From an uncultured Candidatus Saccharibacteria bacterium (GTDB lineage Bacteria; Patescibacteriota; Saccharimonadia; Saccharimonadales; UBA10212): a stretch of DNA of 64,000 nt. The first letter of the stretch is position 1; every line of letters begins with the position of its first letter. Below the pieces are notes generated by a model. That model did no database searches. It had not been told where the DNA came from and was given only the letters and a program-made list of their open reading frames with translations. The stretch lies in contig CAYWQH010000003.1 in the NCBI GenBank assembly GCA_964460855.1, positions 617 through 64,616 of the forward strand. Direction: 5' to 3'. Shown here one piece after another: positions 1-47,746 of the stretch. The translations under genes were made by a program, and so were the position numbers.

Positions 1-808
1 GCGGTTTGAGCTTGGCAAATGTTTCGTAAAAGCGTTTTTCGATTTTATCCGGCTCAGTAATTATGATATCGTCAACTTTTTGGTCACGTATTGCCACTAT
101 CCTATTCATTAGCGCGATGCGGTCGGGAAGCGTTTCAATATCGCTTTCGAATTGCACACCATTTGCGTTGCGCTGAAATTGCAGGTGAACACCTTCTCTC
201 AATTTCGCTTCTGTGGTTTCTGGGCTAAGAAGTATGGCGCGGGTAGCTTCTTGTTCATCCAATTGCAATCCAGCCGAACAGAAAACCGTAGCCGGGAAAC
301 CGCGAATAATGGTTTGCTCGGCACGGTTAGCGCCCTTTTTATCCTTGTTCGTATTACTAAACTTTAGGTCGCGCTGGTCGTGTGATAGCACAGGCCGCAG
401 TCTCTTTTGCAACTCGGGGTTAGGCTGTTCGTAGAAAATCAGAATCTTCCGTTCAAGCGATACTATTTTGGCACCAAGCTTTTTGTCTAACTTGCCTTCA
501 CTATAAAAGAATGATGTCGGACTAGCGCCGCTACGCTCAATCTTATCCTCCTCCGGGAAAAACTTCGCAATCTCAGTAGTCAAATAGGTCTTGCCCGAAG
601 AACTTGGTGCGTTAAAGCTCACGTTGAGTTGGCTATCATCCGTATATGCCGATAGCATGCAGAGGAAGGTTATTAACTTATTGTCGCGGTCGTATTTAAT
701 TGTATGCGTCAAAATGGCTTCTAAGTCGTTTAAGGTCATTTCATCCGGCGGGGTGACTAATTCGTTATTGCTGAGTGATAGCTCTGGTTCGTTCGTCTGG
801 TTGTCCAT
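1..808 (-). CDS. P-loop NTPase of unknown function, mobile-element-like (N-terminal 269 aa; gene runs off the left edge)
   Basis: Absent from the ORF track because it has no in-window stop. My reverse-strand translation from ATG 808 (AGGAGA 6 nt upstream) stays open to base 1: MDNQTNEPELSLSNNELV...FNAPSSSGKTYLTTEIAKFF (Walker A AxxxxGKT). Confidence 0.6.
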   Translation of the reverse strand, partial: MDNQTNEPELSLSNNELVTPPDEMTLNDLEAILTHTIKYDRDNKLITFLCMLSAYTDDSQLNVSFNAPSSSGKTYLTTEIAKFFPEEDKIERSGASPTSFFYSEGKLDKKLGAKIVSLERKILIFYEQPNPELQKRLRPVLSHDQRDLKFSNTNKDKKGANRAEQTIIRGFPATVFCSAGLQLDEQEATRAILLSPETTEAKLREGVHLQFQRNANGVQFESDIETLPDRIALMNRIVAIRDQKVDDIIITEPDKIEKRFYETFAKLKP

Positions 809-977
809 ATTCATTCTCCTCATTTATTGATAGTTCGCGGCGTCGCTGAGCCTTAACAATCACGAAGCGCATTATGGCCATGCCCGCTTCTTGCACCTGT
901 TCGTCCGTGAACTCCTGGCCGCACAAATCGTTTAGCAGCGGGCGCAGGCTTTTAATATGTTTTTCGCTAAGCTTCAT
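765..977 (-). CDS. hypothetical small protein (70 aa)
   Basis: ORF track. Its 3' end overlaps the start of the P-loop gene by 44 nt and it lies 5 nt downstream of the 81-aa gene, giving an operon-like packing. No motif recognised. Confidence 0.4.
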   Translation of the reverse strand: MKLSEKHIKSLRPLLNDLCGQEFTDEQVQEAGMAIMRFVIVKAQRRRELSINEENEYGQPDERTRAITQQ

Positions 978-982
978 AGTTC

Positions 983-1228
983 TTATCTCTCGGAGTAAAT
1001 CCGATTTTTGAGCGTCTTGGTTGCGTCAAAATATTCGCGTGCTTTAACAATCATCCTGTCATTCCAGTAATTCCTAATTTCTTCCTCTGTGTGGATGTTA
1101 TTTAAGAAAATAAAATGAACACGACCGTCGTCATCTTGTCGTGTACCTAAAAGTCTTATGCTTTGACACACTAACGCAGCAGCCAGACCTAAATCACTTA
1201 TTTCGACAGTATCTTTACTCATTTCCAT
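983..1228 (-). CDS. hypothetical small protein (81 aa), possibly DUF5659-like
   Basis: ORF track. The pattern LGLAAALVCQSIRLLG...GRVHFIFLN...EEIRNYWNDRMIVKAREYFDATKTLKNRIY resembles, from memory, small DUF5659 proteins of mobile elements. Not verified. Confidence 0.45.
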   Translation of the reverse strand: MEMSKDTVEISDLGLAAALVCQSIRLLGTRQDDDGRVHFIFLNNIHTEEEIRNYWNDRMIVKAREYFDATKTLKNRIYSER

Positions 1229-1254
1229 ACCCTTCTTTGCTTATGGCTGTAGTT

Positions 1255-1288
1255 TGCCAAACAAAAACGGAGCTGTTATTCAGCTCCG
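1255..1288 (-). terminator. intrinsic terminator after the 280-aa gene
   Basis: On the minus strand, CGGAGCTG-AATAA-CAGCTCCG (8-bp stem, plus coordinates 1268-1288) is followed by TTTTTGTTTGG. Confidence 0.55.
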
Positions 1289-1313
1289 ATGAGTTACGAT
1301 GGTTTGGTTGAAA

Positions 1314-2156
1314 TTACAGGGTGGCTTTTACAGCGTGTTGCGGTTTGGTACGGTTCGCATCCCGACCGGCAAGCAAGGCTATTTGCCTGGATGTTAGTTC
1401 GGCCGATTGCCTAAAACGCACTTTGGTTTTGGTGGTCTCAGGAAAGTATATAGGTTTGAGCGGTAGGAGCTCTTTGGTAAACCCACACTGCCTGACAAGC
1501 TCGGTCATGCCGTACTTGGCGTCTATCTTGATTTCAGTACGAATAATCGTGCCGGTCAGCGAAGTATCGGGGTGCTTTAAAAGGTAGTCTAGGAAGTGGT
1601 AAGGGTCATTGTCTACCCGTAGCGTACTAATCCAATATTTTGTGCCATCAGCTAATCGAGCGTACACATCGCCCTTATCGCCAGTCACAATGCTTACTTT
1701 CTGATTGGTTTCGTCGGCACCGAGGCTCGCAGGCCGCTCTACTTCTTGTTGCAACTGTTCGCCTACAATCTTGAATTCGGCATGCGGGATTTTCCTAGTC
1801 GTGCTTAAACCGGCGGCAATTTGTAATTTATCGAACCCAATATTAGCGATAATCTCTATTTCACGAGTTATAAAGTGCATGGCAAACACTAGCTCCCAGA
1901 AGTTCTGGACATCCACATCCATCTTACTGCCTCGAACAATCTGCCTTAAGCCGTACTCTGGGTGCTTTTTGCGCATCGCGGCCACCAATCTCTCGCGTTG
2001 CACCACAAATCTGGCTGGTCGGTCAACGGTGCCGGTGGTTAATTCGTCCTTCTGAAACTTCTCAAGGTAAGCCAATAGCTTTTTTGAAGGCACTTTCCGC
2101 CCAAGCGAGCGCCGCCCGGCTAAAAACACTTCTTCTTCCGACCAATACTTATCCAT
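1314..2156 (-). CDS. hypothetical protein (280 aa)
   Basis: Long ORF with its own terminator, divergent from hsdM. No motif recognised. Confidence 0.55.
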   Translation of the reverse strand: MDKYWSEEEVFLAGRRSLGRKVPSKKLLAYLEKFQKDELTTGTVDRPARFVVQRERLVAAMRKKHPEYGLRQIVRGSKMDVDVQNFWELVFAMHFITREIEIIANIGFDKLQIAAGLSTTRKIPHAEFKIVGEQLQQEVERPASLGADETNQKVSIVTGDKGDVYARLADGTKYWISTLRVDNDPYHFLDYLLKHPDTSLTGTIIRTEIKIDAKYGMTELVRQCGFTKELLPLKPIYFPETTKTKVRFRQSAELTSRQIALLAGRDANRTKPQHAVKATL

Positions 2157-2260
2157 CTACATTTCCATCTTCATAACACCATACATTTTCCGCTATAACA
2201 GATGTAACAGCAAGCACAAGCATTAAAACCGTTTCTAAAGGTGTTATCACGGTACTTTAC

Positions 2261-2269
2261 TGGTACAAT
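2261..2269 (+). promoter_or_regulatory. extended -10 promoter element (TGgTACAAT) upstream of hsdM
   Basis: A TGnTAnnAT element lies 52 nt upstream of ATG 2321 in the divergent intergenic region. Confidence 0.4.
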
Positions 2270-2320
2270 ATTTGTATACGCAAAGGGGTGGGAGCTAACT
2301 AGGTTTGCTTAATTATTACT

Positions 2321-4492
2321 ATGGATATGAAAAAAGAACAAGAACGAGCAAAGCTACACAGTACAATCTGGAAAATTGCTAATGACCTTCGCGGGTCGGT
2401 TGATGGCTGGGATTTTAAGCAGTATGTTCTCGGAATGTTACTCTACCGATTTATTTCGGAAAATCTAACTAACTACATTAATACGGAAGAATTACGCGAT
2501 GCAAAAACACCGCGTGATTTTAATTTTGCTAAGTTGAAAGATGATGAAGCGGAGTTTGGTCGCAGCGAAACTGTTAAAGACAAAGGGTTCTATATACTGC
2601 CAAGCGAGCTATTCGAGAATGTACGTAAGAATGCTAAGAATGATGAAAATCTAAACGAAACGCTGTCAGGAGTTTTCCGAAATATCGAGAACTCTGCTAA
2701 AGGTGCTGAAAGCGAAGATGACATAAAGGGTCTTTTTGATGACATTGACGTGAACAGTAACAAGCTAGGCTCAACCGTCGATAAGCGTAATAAGCAGCTA
2801 GTAAAACTACTAGATGCCGTAGGTGAACTACAGCTAGGTAGCTATAAGGATAATACTATCGATGCATTTGGTGATGCCTACGAGTTCCTTATGGGTATGT
2901 ATGCAAGCAATGCAGGAAAGTCGGGCGGTGAATACTATACGCCTCAAGAAGTGAGCGAACTACTTGCTCGGATTGCTGTTGTTGGCAAGACTGAGGTTAA
3001 TAAAGTTTACGACCCTGCCGCTGGCTCCGGTTCGTTGCTTTTGCAATTTGCCAAGATATTAGGCAAAGAAAATGTACGAAAAGGGTTCTATGGACAAGAA
3101 ATCAACATCAACACTTATAACCTTTGTCGTATCAACATGATTTTGCACGATATTAATTATGAGAAATTTAGTATTGCTCATGGTGACACACTTGTTGACC
3201 CAAGCCCAGAGCATTGGGATGAGGAACCATTCGAAGCAATAGTATCTAATCCGCCATATTCTATTAATTGGGCGGGAGATAGTGACCCAATACTGATAAA
3301 CGACCCTCGTTTCTCGCCAGCTGGCGTCCTAGCCCCAAAGAGTAAAGCTGACCTCGCGTTCACTATGCACATGCTTTCGTGGCTATCTACAACCGGAACC
3401 GCCGCAATCGTTGAGTTTCCGGCAGTACTAACTCGTGGCGGTGCCGAACAGAAAATTCGTAAATACTTGATAGATAACAACTTTATCGATGCTGTAATCC
3501 AATTACCGCTAGATTTATTCTTCGGTACAACTATTGGAACTTGTATCCTCGTGCTAAAGAAGAGCAAGAAAGACAACGCGGTACTCTTTATTGATGCAGC
3601 TGCTGAGTTTGTGCGTGGCGGAAATAAAAACAAACTGAGTACTGCGAATCGTGCCAAAATTCTAGAAACATACACAGACCGTAAGGATATTGAGCATTTC
3701 GCTAAGTTAATTCCAAGTAGTGAAATTCAGGAGAATAACTACAATATTGCGGTCAGCAGTTATGTCAAACAGGAAGATACACGCGAAGTGGTGGACATAG
3801 CTAAGTTGAATGCCGAAATCAACGAGATTGTTACCAAGCAGCAGGTGCTACGCAAAGCGATTGATGAAATCTCTGGTGATATAGAAGGCGAAAAATGGAG
3901 CGATATAAATAAGCTTATTAAAGAACATTGCCCTAATGGAGTGGAATACAAAGAACTAGGCGAAGTTTTAAATTATGAACAACCGGGTAAATATATAGTA
4001 AGTTCAACCATTTACCATAAAAGCTATACTACACCTGTGCTTACGGCAGGAAAGAACTTCATTCTGGGTTTTACAAACGAGACAAATGGCATATATAAAG
4101 CCAGCAAGGAATCACCAGTAATAATTTTCGATGATTTCACGACATCATTTCATTGGGTAGATTTTGACTTTAAAGTTAAGTCGTCGGCAATAAAAATTCT
4201 TCAACCGCAAGAGAATGAGGCGGTGGATTTTCGATATTTGTACTATGCAATGAAGTGTATTGAATATAAACCTACAGACCATTCACGTCACTGGATTTCA
4301 CAGTATTCGAAATTTAAAATCCCTGTACCACCAAAACCTATACGCAAAGCTATTGTTAATACATTAGATTCGCTAACGGAGATGAAAGAGGAAATAGAAG
4401 TATCCCTAGCAGCCGAGTTAAATGCAAGAAGAAAGCAGTACGAATCCTATCGAAAGGAACTGCTCACTTTCGAGGGGCTTGATAGTGAATAA
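2321..4492 (+). CDS. hsdM: Type I restriction-modification methyltransferase fused to a single-TRD (half) specificity subunit (HsdM-HsdS fusion)
   Basis: HsdM-like N terminus (LHSTIWKIANDLRG), motif I DPAAGSGSLL and motif IV NPPY (VSNPPYSINW). The C-terminal ~200 aa read as an HsdS TRD plus conserved helix (KELGEVLNYEQPGKYIV...IPVPPKPIRKAIVNTLDSL...RRKQYESYRKELLTF). Confidence 0.9.
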   Translation: MDMKKEQERAKLHSTIWKIANDLRGSVDGWDFKQYVLGMLLYRFISENLTNYINTEELRDAKTPRDFNFAKLKDDEAEFGRSETVKDKGFYILPSELFENVRKNAKNDENLNETLSGVFRNIENSAKGAESEDDIKGLFDDIDVNSNKLGSTVDKRNKQLVKLLDAVGELQLGSYKDNTIDAFGDAYEFLMGMYASNAGKSGGEYYTPQEVSELLARIAVVGKTEVNKVYDPAAGSGSLLLQFAKILGKENVRKGFYGQEININTYNLCRINMILHDINYEKFSIAHGDTLVDPSPEHWDEEPFEAIVSNPPYSINWAGDSDPILINDPRFSPAGVLAPKSKADLAFTMHMLSWLSTTGTAAIVEFPAVLTRGGAEQKIRKYLIDNNFIDAVIQLPLDLFFGTTIGTCILVLKKSKKDNAVLFIDAAAEFVRGGNKNKLSTANRAKILETYTDRKDIEHFAKLIPSSEIQENNYNIAVSSYVKQEDTREVVDIAKLNAEINEIVTKQQVLRKAIDEISGDIEGEKWSDINKLIKEHCPNGVEYKELGEVLNYEQPGKYIVSSTIYHKSYTTPVLTAGKNFILGFTNETNGIYKASKESPVIIFDDFTTSFHWVDFDFKVKSSAIKILQPQENEAVDFRYLYYAMKCIEYKPTDHSRHWISQYSKFKIPVPPKPIRKAIVNTLDSLTEMKEEIEVSLAAELNARRKQYESYRKELLTFEGLDSE

Positions 4493-7400
4493 ATACAGCA
4501 CGGTAGCCGAGAATCCACATAGTACGGTTGTAGCAGAATACACGCCCGCCGCTCGCCGCGCTAGCGACTATCAAAGTGAAGCTGAGCTTGAGCAAGCCCT
4601 AATTGACCAGCTTCAAAAACAAGCTTATGAATACCTTCGTATTGGCAGTGAAGCTGACCTTATTACTAATCTTCGTAAGCAGCTAGAGCAGTTGAACGAC
4701 TACAAGTTTACCGATACCGAATGGGAGAAGTTCTTCAATCAATATCTTGCCAACCCTAACGAGAGTATTCAAGAAAAAACCACCACCATCCAGGAAGATA
4801 GCGTTAAGAACCTGACACGTGATGATGGCACGGTAAAGAACATTAAGCTGATAGATAAAGCCAACATCCATAACAATAGTGTGCAAGTTATAAACCAATA
4901 TGAGATAGAAGGTGCACGCTCCAACCGCTACGACGTGACAGTACTGGTGAACGGCTTACCGCTGGTACATATTGAGCTTAAACGGCGCGGCGTATATATC
5001 AAAGAAGCTTTTAACCAAATAAACCGCTATCAGCGTGATAGCTTTTGGGCGGGTAGCGGTTTATTTGAGTTTGTTCAGCTGTTTGTTATTAGTAATGGCA
5101 CTTATACTAAGTATTACAGCAACACCACCCGCAACCAACACATCAAAGACGGCAGCAACATCAGTAAAAAAGGCAAAAAGACTAGTAATAGTTTCGAGTT
5201 TACAAGCTGGTGGGCAGATGCTCAAAACAGACCTATCACCGACTTAACCGACTTTGTTCAGACGTTCTTTGCCAAGCACTCCTTACTCAACATCATCACA
5301 AAGTATTGCGTGTTTACCAGCGACCGCCTGCTACTGGTTATGCGTCCATACCAGATTGTTGCCACAGAGCGTATCCTCAGTCGAATAGAAGTCAGCACAA
5401 ACTACAAAAAACTAGGCACAGTTGAAGCCGGAGGTTATGTTTGGCACACCACTGGGTCGGGCAAAACACTCACCAGCTTCAAGACCGCCCAACTAGCCAG
5501 CAAGCTAGATAGCGTTGATAAAGTGCTGTTCGTGGTAGACCGCAAAGACTTGGACTACCAGACCATGAAGGAATATGACAAGTTTGAGAAGGGTGCAGCC
5601 AACAGTAATACCTCAACAGCTAAGCTTAAGAAGCAGCTTGAAAACCCGAACGCACGGATTATTATCACTACAATCCAAAAGCTAGACAAGTTCATTAAAA
5701 AAAACGACGGGCACAGGATTTTTGATGGACACATCGTTTTGATTTTTGACGAGTGCCACCGCTCACAGTTCGGCGACATGCATCACTCCATTACTAAGAG
5801 CTTCAAGAACTATCATATTTTTGGTTTTACCGGCACGCCAATTTTTTCGGCTAATATATCCAGTAGCGGACGCGCTGACCTCAAAACAACAGAGCAAGCT
5901 TTCGGCGAAAAACTGCACACCTACACAATAGTTGACGCTATTACCGATAAAAACGTCCTGCCGTTCCGCATAGATTACATCAGCACCGTGCGCGAGGCCG
6001 AAGAAATAGATGACACGCAAGTGCGCAGCATAGACACCGAAGCAATACTGGGTGCGCCTGAGCGAATTAGCAAAGTAGTGCAGTACATTCGTGAACACTT
6101 TGACCAAAAAACCAAGCGCAATAGTAGCTATATGTTTACCGGTGCTTTACAGAACATTCACGAAGTTGCTACTGCCCGCGACCGGCATGCCATAGAGGAA
6201 ATCAAAAAACGCATTCGGCTCAGCGGCTTCAATTCCATATTTGCTGTCAGCTCCATTGAGGCAGCAAAAAAGTATTACGCCGAATTCAAACGCCAACAAG
6301 CCGAAGCCCCAGAAGCAACGCGGTTAAAGGTAGCGATTATTTACAGCTACGGGGTCAACGAAGATGAAGACCTGCTAGACGGGTTGGAGGACGAAAACTC
6401 AGAGGGCACCGAAGGGTTGGATACCGGCTCACGCGACTTCCTGGACAGCGCTATTAAAGACTACAATCAGATGTTCACTACAAACTACGATACTTCGTCT
6501 GATAACTTCCAAAATTACTATAAGGATGTGTCGCTGCGAATGAAAAATCGTGAGATTGACCTGCTTATAGTGGTTAACATGTTCCTGACCGGCTTCGACG
6601 CCACCACCCTCAACACGCTCTGGGTAGATAAGCGTCTACGCTCACACGGCTTACTGCAAGCCTTCTCACGCACAAACCGCATCCTTAACTCTGTCAAAAC
6701 ATTTGGCAATATCGTCAGTTTTCGCAATCTGGAAGACGCAACAAATGACGCACTTGCTTTGTTTGGCGACAAAGAAGCCGGTGGCATCGTGCTTCTTAAA
6801 TCATACGACGAGTACTACAAAGGCTACGACGATAACGGTAAGCACAACCGCGGCTATATGGAACTAGTAGCCGAACTAACTGAGCGGTTCCCGGTAGGGC
6901 AACAGATTATTGGCGAGCAGGAACAAAAGGATTTCATAAAGCTGTACGGCGGAATCCTGCGTGTTCGCAATATTCTGACCACGTTCGATGATTTTGAAGG
7001 AAATGAAATACTGTCTGCTCGTGACATCCAGGACTACCACAGCATGTATATAAATCTGTACAACGACTTCCGTAAAGGTACCGATGGCGACAAAGAAAAC
7101 GTCAACGATGATGTTGTATTTGAGATGGAGCTGATTAAGCAGGTAGAGATTAACATCGATTATATACTTGAACTTATACGCAAATACCATGCTGGTAATC
7201 AGGAAGACAAAGAGCTTCTGGTCGATATTAATAAAGCCATCGATTCTAGTGTCGAGCTACGTAATAAAAAAGAACTAATCGAACAGTTTATCGGCACGCT
7301 CAACGCTAACACATCAGTAGACACCGACTGGCGTAAATTCGTAGACACTAAAAAGGTCGAAGAACTTAATCGAATTATCGCCGATGAGGGTCTCGACCAC

Positions 7401-7604
7401 GATGAAACTTATAAATTCATAGACAATGCCTTCCGCGATGGCACGCTCCAATCTACCGGCACCGGCATTTCAAAAATCCTGCCGCCTGTTTCAAGGTTCT
7501 CAGTCGACAATTCAAGAGGCAAAAAGCGTGAAACTGTCCTAGATAAGCTGACAAACTTCTTTAATAAGTTTTTCGATATTTCTAGTAATCGGCTCGGTGA
7601 ATGA
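4485..7604 (+). CDS. hsdR: Type I restriction enzyme R subunit (HsdR)
   Basis: PD-(D/E)xK-like YDVTVLVNGLPLVHIELKR, helicase motif I TGSGKT and motif II DECHRS. Start chosen at GTG 4485 (GAGGGG 7 nt upstream; GTGAATAA overlaps the hsdM stop). The ORF track's ATG 4422 is an in-frame alternative. Confidence 0.9.
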   Translation: MNKYSTVAENPHSTVVAEYTPAARRASDYQSEAELEQALIDQLQKQAYEYLRIGSEADLITNLRKQLEQLNDYKFTDTEWEKFFNQYLANPNESIQEKTTTIQEDSVKNLTRDDGTVKNIKLIDKANIHNNSVQVINQYEIEGARSNRYDVTVLVNGLPLVHIELKRRGVYIKEAFNQINRYQRDSFWAGSGLFEFVQLFVISNGTYTKYYSNTTRNQHIKDGSNISKKGKKTSNSFEFTSWWADAQNRPITDLTDFVQTFFAKHSLLNIITKYCVFTSDRLLLVMRPYQIVATERILSRIEVSTNYKKLGTVEAGGYVWHTTGSGKTLTSFKTAQLASKLDSVDKVLFVVDRKDLDYQTMKEYDKFEKGAANSNTSTAKLKKQLENPNARIIITTIQKLDKFIKKNDGHRIFDGHIVLIFDECHRSQFGDMHHSITKSFKNYHIFGFTGTPIFSANISSSGRADLKTTEQAFGEKLHTYTIVDAITDKNVLPFRIDYISTVREAEEIDDTQVRSIDTEAILGAPERISKVVQYIREHFDQKTKRNSSYMFTGALQNIHEVATARDRHAIEEIKKRIRLSGFNSIFAVSSIEAAKKYYAEFKRQQAEAPEATRLKVAIIYSYGVNEDEDLLDGLEDENSEGTEGLDTGSRDFLDSAIKDYNQMFTTNYDTSSDNFQNYYKDVSLRMKNREIDLLIVVNMFLTGFDATTLNTLWVDKRLRSHGLLQAFSRTNRILNSVKTFGNIVSFRNLEDATNDALALFGDKEAGGIVLLKSYDEYYKGYDDNGKHNRGYMELVAELTERFPVGQQIIGEQEQKDFIKLYGGILRVRNILTTFDDFEGNEILSARDIQDYHSMYINLYNDFRKGTDGDKENVNDDVVFEMELIKQVEINIDYILELIRKYHAGNQEDKELLVDINKAIDSSVELRNKKELIEQFIGTLNANTSVDTDWRKFVDTKKVEELNRIIADEGLDHDETYKFIDNAFRDGTLQSTGTGISKILPPVSRFSVDNSRGKKRETVLDKLTNFFNKFFDISSNRLGE

Positions 7605-8356
7605 TTAAAGACGAATTGATATCAACGCTGACTCAAAGATTTACATTTGTATTTGAAGATGCCAAAACCTACATATATGTTCGTAAGGAAGGAATACAAG
7701 ATAGAGAGGGCTTGGGTGGCGGGAATTTTACCGTAGCCTACTCGTTATTCGCCCTGCTTAACCTGGCATCTAAAGTACATTATTACTTGCACAAGCCTCA
7801 AAAATTTTCGAACCTTGAATACCGAAGCAAAGTTAAAGATTTAAAAGATAAGGTACTAAGTGGGGATTTATCGTCTGATGAGAAGAAGATTTTAAAAAAT
7901 CAGCTGATGCTACCTAGAGACATGGAAACTAATGAAGTAAATGCTTTTATAGAATTTACACGCGAGCTTGAAGCTGAGGGTCTAACTATTCGCAAAGAAC
8001 ATGAATCGAGCCAAAGTGACTATGCAACTATTTGGTCAGGTTTTCGAAACATGCTTGCACACCTAGCTACAGTACAAAGCGGGAAAGGCGTGATGGCCTA
8101 TACTCTTGAAAAGCATTGGCCAGCAGCTGCGAGGAAATCAGTCCCAATTGATACGGTTTTAGAAATGATAAAAATAGAAAGTTCTAGTTTTCCACCATTT
8201 TTCTATGTCGATTCTAGACAAGGCTGGATAATGAACGTTGACGCTATGGTGGCACTGATTCCTGACATCCAAAATAAAACTATAGATTGCGTAAGTAATA
8301 GTGAACTGCCATATAGTGAACTAGAAAGACTCCTAAACTTTATACAGCCTTCCTAA
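7601..8356 (+). CDS. hypothetical protein with an HEPN-like Rx4H motif, translationally coupled to hsdR
   Basis: An ATGA start/stop overlap with hsdR. Motif WSGFRNMLAHLATV (R-N-x3-H) matches the HEPN RNase signature Rx4-6H with a polar residue after R. Motif-level evidence only. Confidence 0.6.
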   Translation: MIKDELISTLTQRFTFVFEDAKTYIYVRKEGIQDREGLGGGNFTVAYSLFALLNLASKVHYYLHKPQKFSNLEYRSKVKDLKDKVLSGDLSSDEKKILKNQLMLPRDMETNEVNAFIEFTRELEAEGLTIRKEHESSQSDYATIWSGFRNMLAHLATVQSGKGVMAYTLEKHWPAAARKSVPIDTVLEMIKIESSSFPPFFYVDSRQGWIMNVDAMVALIPDIQNKTIDCVSNSELPYSELERLLNFIQPS

Positions 8357-9257
8357 TTTCACTCCATTTGACCGCCCAGTTAAGTTTAGGGTTCGCGTCC
8401 ATTGCTTTAATTAATTCAAAAATATTTTCAAGGTCTACGGCCGTTTTTCGCCAATTTTCATTAGCATTGTGTGTCCTTAGCGCTTCGTGATTTATTTGAG
8501 CGTACGAATGAAGCTTGTCGATGTGTTGCTGTATTTGTTGTCTTTGTTTGTGTTTAGAGATATCTACGGTAAACAACTGTTCATGCGCATCTAAAAATGC
8601 TGTTGCAAGGAACATCATGAAATTAGTAACCATGCTTATTAGGTCGTCATCCTTTTCATAGGTTAGGGCTATAGCCTTTGGTTTCTCTTTATTGCCGAGC
8701 TCAATCATATCTCCCATAACATTAAACATATTCGAATGAGCAAATGCGGAAGTAATGTGATATGTTGTCCAATCAAGCTTTAATTCATCTCTCACTAGGC
8801 CGGTTGCATTAAATTTAGCACCTGTCTGCTCCTTAGCGGAGTATGCGTTGTATGGGCATTCTGGATGAATGGAAACGAAAATTATTCGTAAGAATGACTC
8901 GTAGACACTTCTCAGAATAGTGATTGAATCTTCATATGCACCATCAATTAGTAAGGTGTAGGCCGAATAAAATTGCTTCAGTGCTCGTGTGGATATAACA
9001 AATTGAAAGCCACGATTAATCGGCCATCCCTTTTTGTCGAGGTAGTTTATATTATGCGAGTACTCGACCATTGAGCAGAAAAACATCTCAAACTGGTTCA
9101 TAAATCTGCGGTACTCTTTTCCCATATATAACCTATGCTTCGTCTGATAGTTTTGAATATCTGTAAAAGCAGATACGTCGCTTCTACTTACCATTTCATC
9201 CAGCCTACGAATTAAGTCCTGGGACTCTTGTTTGGTTCTAGCTCTTGGGGCTTCCAT
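8340..9257 (-). CDS. hypothetical protein (305 aa from the first ATG; the ORF is open to a TTG at 9296)
   Basis: Long ORF convergent with the HEPN-like gene, with a 17-nt 3' overlap. First ATG at 9257 (MEAPRARTKQ...). TATACT lies exactly 7 nt upstream of that ATG. Confidence 0.6.
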   Translation of the reverse strand: MEAPRARTKQESQDLIRRLDEMVSRSDVSAFTDIQNYQTKHRLYMGKEYRRFMNQFEMFFCSMVEYSHNINYLDKKGWPINRGFQFVISTRALKQFYSAYTLLIDGAYEDSITILRSVYESFLRIIFVSIHPECPYNAYSAKEQTGAKFNATGLVRDELKLDWTTYHITSAFAHSNMFNVMGDMIELGNKEKPKAIALTYEKDDDLISMVTNFMMFLATAFLDAHEQLFTVDISKHKQRQQIQQHIDKLHSYAQINHEALRTHNANENWRKTAVDLENIFELIKAMDANPKLNWAVKWSEIRKAV

Positions 9258-9356
9258 AAGGCTAAGTATACCTACCGCTGGACAATAAATTAGCAAAAAT
9301 CAGAAAAAAATTTGGGCGGGACGTATAACAGGACGAGTGAGTGGCCGGTAGGGGTA

Positions 9357-9365
9357 CCCCCCCCC
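9357..9365 (+). repeat. C9 homopolymer tract in a GC-rich non-coding patch
   Basis: Read directly: ggggtaCCCCCCCCCgagg. Confidence 0.9.
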
Positions 9366-9491
9366 GAGGTTCTAACGCAGTACGGCCAATCCCTCTAAAC
9401 CCCACTTCAGCTCGCCCGCAACTATATAGGCAAGGCCATTAGGATACTTAAAGCACTACTATGTAAGGCTCCACCACCCCTGTTTCCAAGA

Positions 9492-9520
9492 TTGATTTAT
9501 GCAGTACTAAACTGTAGAAT
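9492..9520 (+). promoter_or_regulatory. near-consensus sigma70-type promoter (TTGATT-17 nt-TAGAAT)
   Basis: Hexamers at 9492-9497 and 9515-9520 with a 17-nt spacer. The first credible start codon is about 130 nt downstream. Confidence 0.5.
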
Positions 9521-9647
9521 AGCTATTAAGCAGGGTTCCTACTTTGTAGACAACGCTGCACCAAAAAAATATGCCCATCTTTGCGATGCGTGTATTTTTT
9601 TTGGCCTCACGGTAGGATTCGCCCCGACGAAGGGAACCTTCGGAGGT

Positions 9648-9680
9648 CATAAAGTGCCGGGGGCACTTTATGTTTTCCTT
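9648..9680 (+). terminator. perfect 11-bp hairpin plus T-run (terminator-like or start-codon-sequestering)
   Basis: CATAAAGTGCC-GGG-GGCACTTTATG followed by TTTTCCTT. The 5' arm contains GTG 9654, which lies 7 nt downstream of GGAGG 9642-9646. Confidence 0.4.
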
Positions 9681-9959
9681 GCTTGTCAGAGCGCGGAGGC
9701 TTTAGCCGAGCGCGAATCTATTAAGTGCGAATCCCAATGGCAAATATTCTTTGCTATAATTCGCCGCATGACAATCAGCCGTATACTAAAAGAAGCCGCT
9801 TACACAATAAGTTTAGTAATTAACCCTTGGTTTGTCGGTGATAATGATAACCCTCAAGATATTCCACTATGGGCTGCAGTAGCAATTTGCCTAATCTCAT
9901 TTATTTTTCTGGGCTTGCTATTAATCGCCGCAATTACTTATTTGAATCGTGTAATATAA
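9654..9959 (+). CDS. small membrane protein (101 aa from GTG 9654; 63 aa if ATG 9768 is used)
   Basis: C-terminal TM helix LWAAVAICLISFIFLGLLLIAAITYL. GGAGG lies 7 nt before GTG 9654. Alternative start ATG 9768 sits 7 nt after TATAAT (9755-9760). The TTG 9492 start in the ORF track coincides with the -35 box and is unlikely. Confidence 0.45.
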   Translation: MPGALYVFLACQSAEALAERESIKCESQWQIFFAIIRRMTISRILKEAAYTISLVINPWFVGDNDNPQDIPLWAAVAICLISFIFLGLLLIAAITYLNRVI

Positions 9960-11039: not shown

Positions 11040-11114
11040 GCCGTTGTAGCTCAGTGGTAGAGCACCTCCATGGTAAGGAGGGGGTCACGAGTTCAAGTCT
11101 CGTCAACGGCTCCA
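11040..11114 (+). tRNA. tRNA-Thr (anticodon GGT), CCA encoded
   Basis: Cloverleaf folded by hand: GCCGTTG/CAACGGC acceptor, GCTC/GAGC D stem, CCTCC-ATGGTAA-GGAGG anticodon arm, ACGAG-TTCAAGT-CTCGT T arm, T-CCA. Confidence 0.95.
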
Positions 11115-16485: not shown

Positions 16486-16561
16486 AGGGGAGTAGCTCAG
16501 TTGGTAGAGTGGCGGTCTCCAAAACCGTAGGTCGCAGGTTCAAGTCCTGTCTCCCCTGCCA
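16486..16561 (+). tRNA. tRNA-Trp (anticodon CCA), CCA encoded
   Basis: Hand fold: AGGGGAG/CTCCCCT acceptor, GCGGT-CTCCAAA-ACCGT anticodon arm, GCAGG-TTCAAGT-CCTGT T arm, G-CCA. Confidence 0.95.
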
Positions 16562-39789: not shown

Positions 39790-39818
39790 TTGCTTAAGGG
39801 GCCTAATTCTGCTATAGT
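39790..39818 (+). promoter_or_regulatory. promoter of rplJ-rplL (TTGCTT-17 nt-TATAGT)
   Basis: Hexamers at 39790-39795 and 39813-39818. Confidence 0.6.
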
Positions 39819-39826
39819 AATAACAG

Positions 39827-39930
39827 ATACCAAAGACCGTAGCTGGGCAACCTTAATTCGCTACCGAGGTAAAAACAATCGAACCGAGAGTTTTTATGAT
39901 GATCTTTGGTAGCCGCCAAAGATTTTTTTA
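39827..39930 (+). promoter_or_regulatory. rplJ leader attenuator (L10-leader-like): mutually exclusive antiterminator and terminator helices
   Basis: TACCAAAGA (39828-39836) pairs perfectly with TCTTTGGTA (39903-39911). The overlapping ATCTTTGG (39902-39909) pairs with CCAAAGAT (39916-39923) and is followed by T7 (39924-39930). Confidence 0.6.
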
Positions 39931-39993
39931 TTTGTGAGGTCGAGCTAAAAATCTGGAGGCGAAAGGTAAATCGTAAACCATGAAGGGAATAAT

Positions 39994-41686: not shown

Positions 41687-43174
41687 GTGGCGCAGGCACT
41701 GTACCGGAAATACCGGTCGCGCTCTTTCGCTGACGTTATCGGCCAGGAGCACGTAACCAAAACGCTGGATAAAGCCGTAAAAACCGGCAAAATTAGCCAT
41801 GCCTACCTATTGTCCGGCCCGCGCGGGGTGGGCAAAACCAGTGTTGCCCGCATACTGGCCCACGAAGTTAACGGTTTAGCATACGAAAACGACGCCTACC
41901 ATATAGATATAATTGAAATCGACGCCGCCAGTAACCGCCGCATTGACGAAATCCGCGACCTGCGCGAAAAAGTGCATATCGCCCCGACTAGCGCGAAATA
42001 TAAGGTCTATATAATCGATGAGGTCCATATGCTTACCCGCGAAGCATTCAACGCCCTGCTTAAAACGCTGGAAGAGCCGCCGGAGCATTGCATCTTTATA
42101 TTAGCTACTACCGAGCCCCATAAATTACCCGAAACCATCATCAGCCGCACCCAGCGGCACAACTTTAAGCCGGTCAGCCCAGATGCGGTGGCCGGCCACT
42201 TAGCCAATATCGCCAATACCGAAAAAATCAGCATTGATGCCGGCGCGCTGCAGCTGCTGGCTGCCCACGGCGAAGGCAGTTTCCGCGATAGTATCAGCAT
42301 GCTCGACCAACTAGCCGGCAGCGGCAAAAAAATAACTGCCGCGATGGTAAGCGACATGCTGGGCATGGCGCCGCAAACCGCGGTAGAACAATGCCTTAAA
42401 TTCGTTTTTGGCGGCAGTCTAGCCGAATTAGCCGCGCAGCTAAAACTATTCCACGAAACCGGAATTAACTCTTCTATTCTAGCCAAACAAATGGCCGAGC
42501 ATTTGCGCAATTTGCTGCACCAGGGTAAAGCCAGCCCCGAAACTATCGCATTGCATAAGAATTTATTAGAGGTCAGTGCCAGCCCAAACCCGGAGGAGCT
42601 ACTGGAAATAATTTTATTTAGCGCGGCCCAGCAAAACACCCCCGGGCAGGAAACCACGGCAGTGACCGAACCGGCAGCAGAAAATTTGATTGCCGCCGAA
42701 ATAAAACCGGCCGAAACCGCCCAAATTACAGAAACGGTAACTGCCCGCCTCGAGCCTGCAGCTTTTCCGGAGTTGGCAGCTGAAACGAACGCGGCCGGGC
42801 AAGCGGAGTTTACGCTAGATAACTGGTCGGACGTGTTGCGCGAAGTAAAAAAATCGGCCGCGTCATTATATACGGCGCTGCGCCTGGCCGTACCGGCCAT
42901 CGAAAACAACAAATTAATTTTGTCTTTCCAATTCGGGCTGCACCAAAAGAAGGTTGACCAGTTAAAACATAAGCAGTTAATTAAAAAGGTCGTGGCTGAG
43001 CTGGGCTTTAAACCGCCAAATATAGAATGCATCGTCGACAAATCGATTGGCACGTTTATCGCCCCCAGCGAAAACGCCGAACCGGTCGCCGAACAACTGG
43101 ATAGCCCGGACACCAGTGAAACCGCCAACTCGATAAGCAATATATTTGGCACCGTGGAAGTGTTAGAATCTTGA
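41687..43174 (+). CDS. dnaX: DNA polymerase III subunit gamma/tau
   Basis: LYRKYRSRSFADVIGQEHV, GPRGVGKTS and IIDEVHML...SRTQ. GTG start 5 nt after GGAG. Confidence 0.95.
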   Translation: MAQALYRKYRSRSFADVIGQEHVTKTLDKAVKTGKISHAYLLSGPRGVGKTSVARILAHEVNGLAYENDAYHIDIIEIDAASNRRIDEIRDLREKVHIAPTSAKYKVYIIDEVHMLTREAFNALLKTLEEPPEHCIFILATTEPHKLPETIISRTQRHNFKPVSPDAVAGHLANIANTEKISIDAGALQLLAAHGEGSFRDSISMLDQLAGSGKKITAAMVSDMLGMAPQTAVEQCLKFVFGGSLAELAAQLKLFHETGINSSILAKQMAEHLRNLLHQGKASPETIALHKNLLEVSASPNPEELLEIILFSAAQQNTPGQETTAVTEPAAENLIAAEIKPAETAQITETVTARLEPAAFPELAAETNAAGQAEFTLDNWSDVLREVKKSAASLYTALRLAVPAIENNKLILSFQFGLHQKKVDQLKHKQLIKKVVAELGFKPPNIECIVDKSIGTFIAPSENAEPVAEQLDSPDTSETANSISNIFGTVEVLES

Positions 43175-43181
43175 GTACGCT

Positions 43182-44561
43182 ATGAACGACGAGGGTATAG
43201 TTTTAAACAGCGCGCGGATACCGCCGCAAAACATCGAAGCCGAAGCAAGCCTGCTGGGCTGTTTGATGATTGACCCAGACGCCTATATTCAGGTTGGAGA
43301 CGTAATCCGGCCCGAAGATTTTTATGACGAGCGGCACCAAAAAATATTCGAATCAATCGTTAGTTTGCACGAAAAACACAGCCCAGTTGACGTGCTGACA
43401 TTAAGCGAGCAGCTTAAAAATACCGGGTACCTGGATGTTGTCGGCGGCGCCAGTTATTTAACTGAACTGACTAATTTCGTGCCTACGGCATCACACGCGC
43501 CGCAGTACGCCGAAATTATCGCCACTAAAGCCATTCGCCGGCGCCTAATAAAGGCTACGCAGATTATCGCCAATATCGGCTTTGACGAGCAAAAAAGCCT
43601 GCAGGAACTAATCGAAGAAGCCGAATCGCGGTTATTCGAAGTCAGCCAACGGCACGTCCGCCAGGACGTAGCCAGCCTGGAATCAATCCTGGCCGACAGT
43701 TTTGACCGCTTAGACGATTTACACAATAACAAAGGCGGCATCCGGGGCATTCCTACCGGGCTGAAAGACCTCGATAAAATTCTGGCTGGCTTGCAGCGAT
43801 CGGATTTGTTCGTGCTGGCGGCCCGGCCATCGATGGGTAAAACCGCCTTGATGCTAAACATCGCCCGCAACGTGGCTACCAAAGCCAAGCAGGGAGCAGT
43901 ACTGGTATTCAGCCTGGAGATGGGTAAGGAGCAGTTAGTGGACCGCATGCTGGCCGGCGAAGCCGGGGTTGATGCCTGGAAGCTGCGCACCGGCGACGGG
44001 CTAAAAGACGAAGATTTCGAAAAACTTAGCGCCGCCATGGGCGTGCTGGCAGAAGCCCCGATTTTTATAGATGATACGTCCGGCATTACGGTAAGCGACA
44101 TGCGCACTAAATCCCGGCGGCTGCACCACCAGGACCCGCTGGCGCTAATAATCGTTGACTACTTGCAGCTGATGAGCGGCGGCACCCGCTTTGCCAGCAG
44201 CGCCAATAGGGTACAGGAAATTTCCGAAATCAGCCGCGGCTTAAAAATACTGGCCCGCGAGCTTAACGTACCGGTTATGGCGCTAAGCCAGTTGAGCCGT
44301 TCGGTAGAAAGCCGCAGCCCGCAAATCCCCCAGCTGGCCGACCTGCGCGAATCGGGCTCCATCGAACAAGACGCCGATGTAGTGGCTTTTATTTACCGCG
44401 AAGATTATTACAACCCCGAAACTGACCGCAAAAACATCACCGACGTATTTATTAAAAAACACCGTAACGGTCCGACCGGCAACGTCGAGCTGTACTTCGA
44501 CCGCGAACGCCAGCGAATCCATAATTTGGACCGAAAACACGCTACGCCGTTTGACGGTTAA
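43182..44561 (+). CDS. dnaB: replicative DNA helicase DnaB
   Basis: PPQNIEAEASLLGCLM, Walker A ARPSMGKTA, IIVDYLQLM and ALSQLSR. Confidence 0.95.
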   Translation: MNDEGIVLNSARIPPQNIEAEASLLGCLMIDPDAYIQVGDVIRPEDFYDERHQKIFESIVSLHEKHSPVDVLTLSEQLKNTGYLDVVGGASYLTELTNFVPTASHAPQYAEIIATKAIRRRLIKATQIIANIGFDEQKSLQELIEEAESRLFEVSQRHVRQDVASLESILADSFDRLDDLHNNKGGIRGIPTGLKDLDKILAGLQRSDLFVLAARPSMGKTALMLNIARNVATKAKQGAVLVFSLEMGKEQLVDRMLAGEAGVDAWKLRTGDGLKDEDFEKLSAAMGVLAEAPIFIDDTSGITVSDMRTKSRRLHHQDPLALIIVDYLQLMSGGTRFASSANRVQEISEISRGLKILARELNVPVMALSQLSRSVESRSPQIPQLADLRESGSIEQDADVVAFIYREDYYNPETDRKNITDVFIKKHRNGPTGNVELYFDRERQRIHNLDRKHATPFDG

Positions 44562-46714: not shown

Positions 46715-47746
46715 ATGGAAACTTCTTATCCTGAAGCTAACCAAATAGCCGAATTGATAAACGGCGCCCAGGACATCCTGATAGTCCAGGCCGACAACCC
46801 GGACGGCGACAGTGTGGCTAGTGCTTTGGCACTGGAAGAAATTTTAGGCGACATGGGCAAAACGCCGCATCTTTATTGCGGAGTAGACATTCCGGTACAT
46901 TTGCATTATTTGTCTGGCTGGAGCCGGGTTAGCAAAACCCTGCCGCCTAAATTTGACATGAGCATTATCGTTGATACCAGCAGCGACACGTTGCTGGAAC
47001 TGCTGGAAATCAGCGGCCAAAAAATGTGGCTTAAAAACAAGCCCTGCGTTATTTTAGACCACCACCCAGTACCCAACAGCATTATGTTCGCAACCGTCGT
47101 CTGCAACCACCCGGCCGTCGCCTGCGGCGAGCTAATTTATGAGCTAGGAAAGCAGCTGGGCTGGCGGATGAATAACCAGTGCGAAAATTATTTGGCGACC
47201 GCAATCTTAAGCGACAGCTTGGGATTGATGAGCGAAGGCACAACGCCGCGCAGCATCCATATTATCGCCGAACTAGTTGAAAACGGGGTGGTACTGGCCG
47301 AATTGGAAGCCGCCCGCCGCGAAACCATGCGCCGCAGCCCCGAACTGGTGGATTACAAAGGCAGGCTGCTGCAGAGGGTGGAATATTACGCCGACAACCG
47401 CGTAGCGGTAATTTCGATACCGTGGGATGAAATTGAAGCCTATAGCCAGAGCTACAACCCGTCGATGTTGGTTCTTGATGACATGCGCTTAACGGAAGGT
47501 ACCGAGGTAGCCATAGCATTTAAGATTTATCCCGACGGCAAGATAACAGGTAAAATCCGCTGCAATTTTGGCAGCGATATAGCCAACCAATTGGCCGAAA
47601 GCTTCGGCGGCGGCGGCCATGCCTATGCCAGCGGCTTTAAAATCCAAGATGCCACTCCCTATGACGAGCTTAAAGCCCGGGTAATTGCCCGGGCCGCCGA
47701 ACTGCTCGACCAAAAAAAGGAAGCCAAGCTGCATGAAACTGTTTAA
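46715..47746 (+). CDS. DHH/DHHA1 phosphoesterase (NrnA-like nanoRNase/pAp phosphatase)
   Basis: NPDGDSVASALAL, IVDTS, ILDHH and GGGGHAYASGF. Confidence 0.85.
   Translation: METSYPEANQIAELINGAQDILIVQADNPDGDSVASALALEEILGDMGKTPHLYCGVDIPVHLHYLSGWSRVSKTLPPKFDMSIIVDTSSDTLLELLEISGQKMWLKNKPCVILDHHPVPNSIMFATVVCNHPAVACGELIYELGKQLGWRMNNQCENYLATAILSDSLGLMSEGTTPRSIHIIAELVENGVVLAELEAARRETMRRSPELVDYKGRLLQRVEYYADNRVAVISIPWDEIEAYSQSYNPSMLVLDDMRLTEGTEVAIAFKIYPDGKITGKIRCNFGSDIANQLAESFGGGGHAYASGFKIQDATPYDELKARVIARAAELLDQKKEAKLHETV

What the first reader, a model, noticed from the sequence alone, without database searches (positions are those of the whole stretch)
2321..4492. HsdM fused in-frame to a half-size (single-TRD) HsdS; no separate specificity gene
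The 723-aa product has a complete N6-adenine methyltransferase core (DPAAGSGSLL, NPPY). It then continues for about 200 aa into one HsdS-type target recognition domain plus the conserved coiled-coil segment (IPVPPKPIRKAIVNTLDSL...RRKQYESYRKELLTF). Its stop overlaps the GTG of hsdR (GTGAATAA), so no hsdS ORF lies between M and R. Canonical Type I S subunits carry two TRDs. A single TRD tethered to M predicts a symmetric (M-S)2 core and a rotationally symmetric bipartite target. Truncated half-S subunits are known to dimerise experimentally, but a natural M-half-S fusion operating with a separate motor subunit is unusual.
Basis: partly seen in the sequence, partly recalled or inferred. Interest (0 to 1): 0.55.

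Follow-up and report, generated by a model that had tools for sequence, protein, structure and literature searches.

The report
Fused M–half-S Type I restriction system
A Saccharibacteria genome carries a two-gene Type I restriction system whose methylase is fused to half a specificity subunit; this is a real, conserved natural version of a design so far described only as an engineered construct, but it works by already understood rules.

Summary
ORF 2321-4492 (723 aa) is an EcoR124-type (Type IC) HsdM joined in frame to exactly one half of an HsdS: N-terminal conserved segment, one TRD and one long helix. hsdR (GTG 4485) overlaps its stop. No other Type IC hsdS-like ORF exists in the 64-kb window.

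The fusion is real. Compared with the canonical neighbour L004, one extra G turns the hsdM/hsdS ATGA overlap into a Trp codon. A 92%-identical gene in another genome (L087) keeps that junction, with dN/dS of 0.08 (M), 0.13 (half-S) and 0.03 (hsdR).

It is not unique. There are 13 fused proteins among the 120 nearest HsdMs, 3 of 80 GTDB loci, and at least 12 clusters at 35-56% identity. Eleven sequenced or gene-called loci place it beside an EcoR124-type hsdR. Fusions to the N-half and to the C-half of S both occur, so the fusion arose more than once.

The TRD is about 60% identical to EcoR124I TRD1 (GAA). That fragment homodimerises to read GAAN7TTC, and an engineered M-half-S fusion restricts with HsdR. 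The likely mechanism is an (M-half-S)2 core plus HsdR on a palindrome near GAA-N8-TTC.

Verdict: a new natural variant of a known kind, of moderate interest.

The parts
2321..4492 (+). hsdM-half-hsdS fusion gene (723 aa). An alternative start two codons downstream gives the 721-aa form P0001.
   Evidence: ORF. Domains. Matches PDB 7bst_D (EcoR124 HsdM, E 6e-175) and 7bst_A (EcoR124 HsdS residues 16-197, E 3.7e-51).
2354..3787 (+). HsdM core: HsdM_N (aa 12-166) and N6_Mtase (aa 179-489), with motif I DPAAGSGSLL and motif IV NPPY.
   Evidence: for the domains; for the motifs in the translation.
3797..3886 (+). C-terminal helix of HsdM (aa 493-522).
   Evidence: Predicted helix with pLDDT 82-90 in an otherwise poor AF2 model. 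Aligns to the end of unfused HsdMs.
3896..3898 (+). Fusion codon TGG (Trp526). The canonical 'AAATGAGC' (hsdM stop overlapping the hsdS ATG) reads 'AAATGGAGC' here, so one extra G removes the frameshift.
   Evidence: Comparison with L004. The same junction is conserved in L087, with synonymous changes on both sides.
3899..3943 (+). N-terminal conserved segment of HsdS (SDINKLIKEHCPNGV), now an internal linker.
   Evidence: Aligns to the start of L004 HsdS, MSRIDRLIRKLCPNGV. Conserved in N-half fused relatives.
3932..4315 (+). The single target recognition domain (about aa 538-665), a homologue of EcoR124I TRD1.
   Evidence: 58-61% identity to EcoR124 HsdS residues 16-140. Non-homologous to the TRD of the syntenic locus L006, so it behaves as a swappable cassette.
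4334..4468 (+). The single long dimerisation helix (aa 672-716). It is of the central-conserved-region (CCR) type and the long (32-residue) length class.
   Evidence: AF2 helix with pLDDT 81-86. Scores 86.4 bits on the CCR profile against 73.0 on the C-terminal-helix profile. It is 4 residues longer than the EcoR124I CCR (alignment).
4485..7604 (+). hsdR (1039 aa from GTG 4485). It is EcoR124-type, with intact nuclease (RYD...IELK) and helicase (TGSGKT, DECH, QAFSRTNR) motifs.
   Evidence: Pfam HSDR_N, SWI2_SNF2/ResIII, T1R_D3-like and EcoR124_C. TIGR00348. PADLOC REase_I at 1181 bits. dN/dS 0.026 against L087. Motifs are visible in the translation.

Best explanation
This is a functional two-gene Type IC restriction-modification system on a mobile island of a Saccharibacteria (CPR) genome.

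Proposed mechanism (inferred):
- The 723-aa protein supplies both methylase and specificity. Each chain carries one HsdM and one half-HsdS (one TRD plus one coiled-coil helix).
- Two chains pair through antiparallel zippering of their terminal helices. This rebuilds the usual M2S1-like core with exact 1:1 stoichiometry.
- The core reads a rotationally symmetric bipartite site and methylates one adenine in each half-site.
- HsdR binds to this core and gives ATP-driven translocation and cleavage at unmethylated sites.

Predicted target (inferred): the TRD is a homologue of EcoR124I TRD1, which reads GAA. The helix belongs to the long, three-TAEL-equivalent class. The predicted site is therefore GAA-N8-TTC, with N7 possible.

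Origin:
- Shown: a 1-nt insertion merged the overlapping hsdM stop and hsdS start.
- Inferred: TRD2 and the second helix were lost, probably by recombination between the two helix-coding repeats.
For: Architecture.

Type IC identity: M matches 7bst_D at E 6e-175. The TRD and helix match 7bst_A residues 16-197 at E 3.7e-51. R carries EcoR124_C.

The gene is real and under selection:
- An identical ORF occurs in a Logan assembly.
- The 92%-identical L087 gene, from another genome, keeps the EGEK-W-SD junction.
- dN/dS is 0.08 for M, 0.13 for the half-S and 0.03 for hsdR, at dS 0.3-1.0.
- The former hsdS ATG now opens a 5-codon dead-end frame, so the S part can only be made as a fusion (sequence).

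Recurrence next to hsdR: L001-L003, L006, L008, L044, L087, L088, L090, L091 and the P0006 locus.

The TRD is diversifying on a conserved scaffold: at least 6 TRD classes occur, and the helix has 4-residue length classes.

Experimental precedent in the literature:
- EcoR124I S(1-215) recognises GAA and dimerises to read GAAN7TTC (PMC2877798, PMC3320862).
- EcoDXXI deltaC, with three TAEL repeats, reads TCAN8TGA (PMC3874165).
- An engineered M-half-S fusion dimerises, methylates ACCN5GGT and restricts with HsdR (PMC6158711).
Against: - No methylome, expression or biochemical data exist for this locus.
- The dimer could not be modelled, and the AF2 monomer was poor (pLDDT 58).
- The TRD is only about 60% identical to EcoR124I TRD1, so the half-site may differ from GAA.
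- Spacer length is inferred by analogy. In the engineered S. aureus half-S the spacing changed unexpectedly (PMC6158711).
- Only 64 kb of the genome was examined for additional S genes.
- GAA-Nk-TTC counts in the window show no informative bias.
Confidence: 0.75

Rival explanations
1. The fused protein does not homodimerise. It pairs with a different half-S, a second M-half-S or a full HsdS encoded elsewhere in the genome, and so reads an asymmetric target.
For: Co-expressed N- and C-terminal half-S fragments of EcoDXXI regenerate wild-type asymmetric specificity (PMC3874165 section 26). Lactococcal truncated S subunits work alongside resident systems (PMC12418389). Only 64 kb of the genome was inspected.
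Against: No second Type IC S-like segment exists in six frames of the window. None was seen within the flanks held for the fused loci whose called genes were listed. The system travels as a self-contained M-half-S plus R module between different island backbones.
Confidence: 0.1
2. The protein acts as a monomer on a short asymmetric half-site, in the manner of Type ISP or Type IIG enzymes. HsdR is recruited to a single M-TRD unit.
For: Type ISP enzymes (LlaGI) use one M and one TRD per chain and read continuous asymmetric sites (PMC3874165).
Against: The 45-residue terminal helix is conserved across all fused relatives, and it is the CCR dimerisation helix of Type IC HsdS. A 3-bp half-site such as GAA would be far too frequent for a working RM system. 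R is a separate, canonical HsdR.
Confidence: 0.05
3. The fusion is an assembly or sequencing indel, or a recently inactivated and decaying Type I locus.
For: In the window the fusion depends on a single extra G (TGA to TGGA) at 3896-3898. TRD2 is missing.
Against: L087 (92% identity, a different assembly) has the same junction with flanking synonymous substitutions. dN/dS is 0.08-0.13 for the fused gene and 0.03 for hsdR. Catalytic motifs are intact. Many independent fused relatives have different junctions.
Confidence: 0.03
4. The fused protein works only as a methyltransferase, in an epigenetic or orphan-like role. The adjacent HsdR does not assemble productively with a tethered half-S core.
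For: An unfused engineered half-S (M1/2S) modified but did not restrict in vivo (PMC6158711).
Against: In the same study the fused M1/2Sfus did restrict with HsdR. Here hsdR overlaps the fused gene translationally and is the most strongly constrained gene of the module (dN/dS 0.026). M-half-S and hsdR are adjacent in lineages only 37-44% identical.
Confidence: 0.05

Closest known systems
Engineered HsdM-half-HsdS fusion 'M1/2Sfus' of S. aureus CC398-1 (Bower et al. 2018, PMC6158711), and the 'Type IMS' class proposed by Roberts et al. 2012 (PMC3510504)
   Same: Same domain order: HsdM, then the N-terminal S segment, TRD1 and the central helix. Both have a separate HsdR. As in the EcoKI construct, the fusion arises by removing the frameshift between overlapping hsdM and hsdS. 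The expected behaviour is a dimeric core, a palindromic target and restriction with HsdR.
   Different: Those are laboratory constructs. This one is natural, is conserved under purifying selection, recurs in many lineages and exchanges its TRD by recombination. Its activity is untested.
EcoR124I-NT / HsdS(delta50) and EcoDXXI deltaC truncated Type IC specificity subunits (PMC2877798, PMC3320862, PMC3874165)
   Same: Same Type IC family. The same half of S (TRD1 plus CCR) is retained, and the TRD is homologous to EcoR124I TRD1 (E 3.7e-51). The homodimer reads GAAN7TTC for EcoR124I and TCAN8TGA for EcoDXXI.
   Different: There the half-S is a separate polypeptide and a laboratory mutant. Here it is covalently tethered to HsdM, and its helix is 4 residues longer than in EcoR124I.
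NgoAV and lactococcal truncated S subunits (natural Type I systems with a single functional TRD)
   Same: Natural Type I systems that work with one TRD and read palindromic bipartite targets.
   Different: Their S remains a separate gene, and in NgoAV it is a fragmented remnant. There is no fusion to M.
Homodimeric M~S gamma-methyltransferases of Type II systems (M.XmnI, M.DrdI, M.XcmI) and 'Type 1 1/2' 2M+2S enzymes (M.AhdI, M.BsaBI, M.PshAI) (PMC3874165 sections 34-35)
   Same: They combine a gamma-class methylase with a single Type I-like TRD and a coiled-coil motif. They act as symmetric dimers on interrupted palindromes. XmnI also reads GAA-N4-TTC.
   Different: Their nuclease partner is a Type IIP enzyme rather than an ATP-dependent HsdR motor. 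Their methylase is not an HsdM with an HsdM_N domain of the EcoR124 family.
Type ISP enzymes (LlaGI, LlaBIII)
   Same: One methylase and one TRD per chain, combined with an ATP-dependent motor nuclease.
   Different: Type ISP enzymes fuse R, M and S into one polypeptide and read asymmetric continuous sites as monomers. Here R is separate, and a dimerisation helix is present.

Membership tests
Type IC restriction-modification systems (EcoR124 family) | HsdM homologous to EcoR124 HsdM (HsdM_N plus N6_Mtase, gamma-class motifs) | tested here: met
   7bst_D at E 6e-175. TIGR00497 at 749 bits. Pfam domains.
Type IC restriction-modification systems (EcoR124 family) | HsdR with an EcoR124-type C-terminal domain, a PD-(D/E)xK nuclease and an SF2 motor | tested here: met
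   EcoR124_C at E 8e-70, plus HSDR_N, SWI2_SNF2 and T1R_D3-like. Motifs are visible in the translation.
Type IC restriction-modification systems (EcoR124 family) | A separate HsdS subunit with two TRDs, a central conserved helix and a C-terminal conserved helix | tested here: not met
   There is one TRD and one helix, fused to M. No other hsdS is present in the window.
Type IC restriction-modification systems (EcoR124 family) | Subunit complementation, antibody cross-reactivity or DNA hybridisation within the family | not testable with these tools
   These are experimental criteria (PMC3510504 introduction).
'Type IMS' (Roberts et al. 2012: HsdM fused to HsdS with one or two TRDs, plus a separate HsdR) | HsdM and HsdS in one polypeptide | tested here: met
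   Single ORF. The junction is conserved in L087.
'Type IMS' (Roberts et al. 2012: HsdM fused to HsdS with one or two TRDs, plus a separate HsdR) | A separate HsdR gene that provides restriction | tested here: met
   hsdR at 4485-7604 overlaps the stop of the fused gene. Only its presence was tested; its activity was not.
'Type IMS' (Roberts et al. 2012: HsdM fused to HsdS with one or two TRDs, plus a separate HsdR) | Restriction and modification activity of the fusion | not testable with these tools
   Requires expression, an efficiency-of-plating assay and methylome sequencing.
Homodimeric half-S Type I cores (EcoR124I-NT, EcoDXXI deltaC, NgoAV) | A single TRD followed by one coiled-coil (CCR-type) helix | tested here: met
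   The S profile matches positions 8-198 only. The helix scores 86.4 bits on the CCR profile against 73.0 on the C-terminal profile. AF2 predicts a helix at 672-716.
Homodimeric half-S Type I cores (EcoR124I-NT, EcoDXXI deltaC, NgoAV) | Dimerisation and a palindromic bipartite methylation target | not testable with these tools
   No multimer prediction or methylome was available. Motif counts were uninformative.
Type ISP (LlaGI-like) | Nuclease, motor, methylase and TRD in one polypeptide | tested here: not met
   R is a separate 1039-aa ORF.
Type IIG/IIB (MmeI, BcgI, AloI) | An endonuclease domain fused to the methylase, with no ATP motor | tested here: not met
   The 723-aa protein has no nuclease domain. 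An HsdR motor is present.
Homodimeric M~S gamma-MTases and 'Type 1 1/2' systems of Type II RM | The partner nuclease is a Type IIP endonuclease | tested here: not met
   The adjacent partner is HsdR. No Type II REase domain was found in the neighbours scanned.

The most novel reading that the evidence does not exclude
Two-gene 'M-half-S plus HsdR' systems are an uncharacterised natural class of Type I enzymes, the natural form of 'Type IMS'. The class has arisen repeatedly by at least two routes: frameshift removal plus loss of TRD2, and deletion joining M directly to TRD2. It persists under selection on mobile defence islands from CPR bacteria to Clostridia. In this layout a single TRD cassette sits between the M C-terminus and the helix. 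One recombination event can therefore reset both half-sites of a palindromic target at once, while subunit stoichiometry stays fixed at 1:1.
Probability: 0.55. Interest if true: 0.5.

Novelty: new variant of a known kind. Interest (0 to 1): 0.4.

Why it matters
- It shows that an architecture built in the laboratory to model how restriction systems evolve (Type I towards IIG/IIB/ISP) already exists in nature. It is under purifying selection and has arisen repeatedly.
- It gives a minimal two-gene Type I system with a predictable palindromic target, which could be used as a compact, re-targetable methylase or restriction module.
- Annotation pipelines label these proteins simply as 'subunit M'. 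Such loci therefore look as if they lack a specificity gene and may be mis-scored as incomplete.
- The biology is an extension of well understood rules rather than a new principle.

Tried and rejected
- AF2 monomer from the 17-sequence alignment A1: mean pLDDT 58 and pTM 0.36, too poor for a fold search.
- Junction-centred protein search, aa 400-723: it returned mostly stand-alone two-TRD HsdS proteins of the same TRD class. It did not size the fused family.
- Counts of GAA-Nk-TTC (k = 3-11) in the window against Markov-1 simulations: no spacer stands out (|z| <= 2.4), so this is uninformative.
- Promoter and terminator scan of 1900-9700: counts are at chance level.
- Plasmid tblastn: only EcoR124-like loci with separate S and M genes were listed, and no fused plasmid example.
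- The look-up of encoding contigs for P0001: not on record, so the left flank of the island could not be extended.
- Literature searches: no paper was found describing a natural M-half-S fusion with a separate HsdR, and 'hsdMS' in papers denotes the gene pair. REBASE could not be queried.
- I first thought the terminal helix was the C-terminal helix of S, from its length and from DNA homology to L004. Profile scoring favours the CCR type, with the 3' end shared.
Full report
**1. Observation**

The window has a single 723-aa ORF at 2321..4492 (+). Its domain content is consistent across four sources:
- Pfam finds HsdM_N (12-166), N6_Mtase (179-489) and exactly one Methylase_S stretch (538-701).
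- NCBIfam's hsdM equivalog covers residues 8-511.
- PADLOC finds MTase_I (10-496) plus a Specificity_I model matched only over positions 2-193 of 388, which is half of a two-TRD subunit.
- A profile I built from 116 stand-alone Type IC HsdS proteins matches the ORF only over its N-terminal half, positions 8-198 of 402. It matches nothing else in six frames of the 64-kb window.

The quoted motifs (DPAAGSGSLL, NPPY, the terminal helix) are present.

The next gene is an HsdR with HSDR_N, SWI2_SNF2/ResIII, T1R_D3-like and EcoR124_C domains. Its GTG at 4485 overlaps the TAA of the fused gene. Homologues start at the same place: L004 reads MNKYSMVAENP, and L087 has the identical GTGAATAAATACAGC. This favours GTG 4485 over the upstream in-frame ATG at 4422.

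**2. Family placement**

- The M part matches EcoR124 HsdM (PDB 7bst_D, E 6e-175).
- The C-terminal 223 aa match residues 16-197 of the EcoR124 specificity subunit (7bst_A, E 3.7e-51). That region is TRD1 plus the central conserved helix. There is also a weaker second match of the helix alone to the C-terminal helix.
- TRD identity to EcoR124I TRD1 is 58-61%.
- The system is therefore Type IC in all three functions, but it lacks the second TRD and the second helix.

**3. Is the fusion real?**

The nearest unfused relative (L004; M part 87% identical) lies in the same kind of island, with a DUF5659 gene, a large serine recombinase and a DUF5677 gene. It has the canonical hsdM (524 aa), hsdS (396 aa, two TRDs) and hsdR.

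At the M/S boundary L004 reads GGCAATAAATGAGCAGG. There the hsdM TGA overlaps the hsdS ATG (…GNK* / MSR…). The window reads GGCGAAAAATGGAGCGAT (…GEK-W-SD…). One extra G converts the overlap into an in-frame Trp codon at 3896-3898. The old ATG now opens a 5-codon dead-end frame (sequence), so the S part can only be made as a fusion.

Evidence that this is not an error:
- An identical ORF occurs in a Logan assembly (P0121).
- A 92%-identical gene in a different NCBI assembly keeps the same junction, with synonymous differences on both sides of it. This is L087, GCA_040383985.1.
- Nei-Gojobori dN/dS between the window and L087 is 0.082 for M (dS 0.64), 0.132 for the half-S (dS 0.31) and 0.026 for hsdR (dS 0.96).

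An artefact or a decaying pseudogene is therefore excluded for practical purposes.

**4. How common is it?**

- Among the 120 best hits to the whole protein, 13 are 708-742 aa long and carry PF01420. The rest are 520-552-aa HsdMs.
- Among the 80 GTDB-representative loci kept from the scan, 3 are fused: L008 (Congzhengia), L044 (Lachnospiraceae) and L055 (Oscillospiraceae). The other 77 have a 1.1-1.3 kb or longer gap holding a separate hsdS.
- In an exhaustive search of 1.84 billion 50%-identity representatives, about 28 of the best 150 are at least 640 aa long. At least 12 of these combine HsdM with a single half-S, at 35-56% identity to the query.
- Other long HsdMs carry different C-terminal domains: TIR, FRG or AlbA_2.

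Contexts of fused genes:
- M-half-S is followed directly by an EcoR124-type hsdR in the P0006 locus, L001-L003 (12 contigs from ENA, Logan and JGI), L006, L008, L044, L087, L088 and L091.
- L090 has the reverse order, hsdR then M-half-S.
- L089 is a 5-kb contig with no hsdR on it.

The architecture is thus a minority form, but it is widespread.

**5. Independent origins and modularity**

- The fused part is the N-half of S (TRD1 plus a CCR-type helix) in the window, L001, L008, L044 and P0002-P0006. It is the C-half (TRD2 plus the C-terminal helix) in L006/P0007, P0119 and L055. These two forms cannot derive from one event.
- In the M part the window protein is closer to unfused HsdMs (88%) than to any other fused one (85%).
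- Junction sequences differ among members.
- Across the fused family the M core, the linker and the helix are conserved, while the TRD falls into at least 6 unrelated classes.
- Against the syntenic locus L006 the homology is mosaic. It is 87% up to nt 3753, absent over 3753-4410 (linker and TRD), 75% from inside the helix through hsdR, and 97% over the two downstream genes. The TRD is being exchanged as a cassette.
- The helix occurs in 28- and 32-residue classes in fused proteins. The central helix of 86 canonical S subunits shows the same split (57 against 20), whereas their C-terminal helix is almost always 32. This mirrors the TAEL-repeat variation known to set spacer length in Type IC enzymes (PMC3874165).

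**6. Mechanism (inferred from established results)**

- EcoR124I S(1-215), which is TRD1 plus the CCR, recognises GAA and homodimerises to read GAAN7TTC. It forms an active methylase and nuclease (PMC2877798, PMC3320862).
- EcoDXXI deltaC, with three TAEL repeats, reads TCAN8TGA. NgoAV is a natural Type IC enzyme with a truncated S and a palindromic site (PMC3874165 section 26).
- Removing the hsdM/hsdS frameshift in EcoKI gives an active fusion, named 'Type IMS' (PMC3510504).
- An engineered HsdM-half-HsdS fusion of an S. aureus system dimerises, methylates ACCN5GGT and restricts with HsdR (PMC6158711).

By analogy, the window protein should form an (M-half-S)2 core with built-in 1:1 stoichiometry. 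That core should recruit HsdR and act on a palindrome. Its helix is 4 residues longer than the EcoR124I CCR, so I predict GAA-N8-TTC, with N7 possible. The half-site and the spacer are predictions only.

**7. Comparison with known systems, and novelty**

Characterised natural relatives are:
- homodimeric M~S gamma-methylases of Type II systems (M.XmnI, M.DrdI, M.XcmI);
- 'Type 1 1/2' 2M+2S enzymes such as M.AhdI, which partner with Type IIP nucleases (PMC3874165 sections 34-35);
- Type ISP enzymes, which fuse R as well.

I found no paper describing a natural M-half-S fusion with a separate HsdR. NCBI names one member (MCC7304316.1) simply 'subunit M'. REBASE could not be checked. I rate this as a new natural variant of a known kind. 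A Type I specialist would find it satisfying rather than surprising.

**8. Context**

DnaB in the window is identical to a protein on the same 125,579-bp NCBI contig. Its named relatives (75-78% identity) are Candidatus Saccharibacteria/Saccharimonadales. The RM module sits on a mosaic island. In related loci that island carries a large serine recombinase. The recombinase itself lies beyond the left edge of the window.

Noticed in passing
window 7601-8356 (+) and 8340-9296 (-): A 251-aa ORF with no Pfam, NCBIfam or PADLOC hit overlaps the hsdR stop (ATGA). It converges with a DUF5677 gene. The same pair follows hsdR in L006 at 97% DNA identity, although hsdR itself is only 75% identical. The pair may be a separately exchanged accessory module of unknown function.
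   Followed up: partly
window 1-2156 (-), compared with L004, L006 and L087: Upstream of the RM genes lies a conserved island backbone: a 280-aa ORF, DUF5659 (983-1228) and a 70-aa ORF. In related loci this backbone continues into a 450-525-aa protein and a large serine recombinase. The window starts inside the island, so the recombinase and the left attachment site are not visible.
   Followed up: partly
P0283, P0368 and P0346; L005 7588-8574: Some HsdM relatives are fused at the C-terminus to other domains: TIR_2 (P0283), FRG (P0368) and SLFN/AlbA_2 (P0346). In L005 a separate AlbA_2 gene sits between hsdM and hsdS. Several others (729-876 aa) have 200-350-aa extensions with no Pfam match.
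   Followed up: no
window 2321-7604 against L087 9095-14379: Synonymous divergence differs threefold along the module: dS is 0.31 in the half-S, 0.64 in M and 0.96 in hsdR. This suggests recombination within the operon, not a single shared history.
   Followed up: no
P0131-P0135; P0369 and P0396: Some stand-alone two-TRD HsdS proteins appear to carry the same TRD class (EcoR124I TRD1-like) in both positions. For P0369 and P0396, both halves hit the N-half of the profile. This would give a palindromic target from a full-length S, as reported for BstXI.
   Followed up: partly
L091 1619-5896; L001 13031-15707; P0006 locus: Other fused M-half-S plus R modules sit in defence islands. L091 has two GmrSD (Type IV) genes. 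L001 has a Type II methylase with a BanI/DpnII-like nuclease and an RVT_3 gene. The P0006 locus has a caspase-like Peptidase_C14 gene and a ThsB-like TIR gene.
   Followed up: no
window 4422-4484: An in-frame ATG 63 nt upstream of the GTG start would extend HsdR by 21 aa and overlap the fused gene by 71 nt. Homologues begin at the GTG/ATG position, and a GAGGGG Shine-Dalgarno-like motif lies 8 nt upstream of GTG 4485.
   Followed up: yes
window 39812-39939, 11040-11114, 16486-16561 and 55367-55441: Ordinary features elsewhere in the window: a ribosomal protein L10 leader and tRNA-Thr(GGT), tRNA-Trp(CCA) and tRNA-Gln(TTG). Also present are dnaX (41687-43174), dnaB (43182-44561) and cysS (47685-49136).
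   Followed up: no
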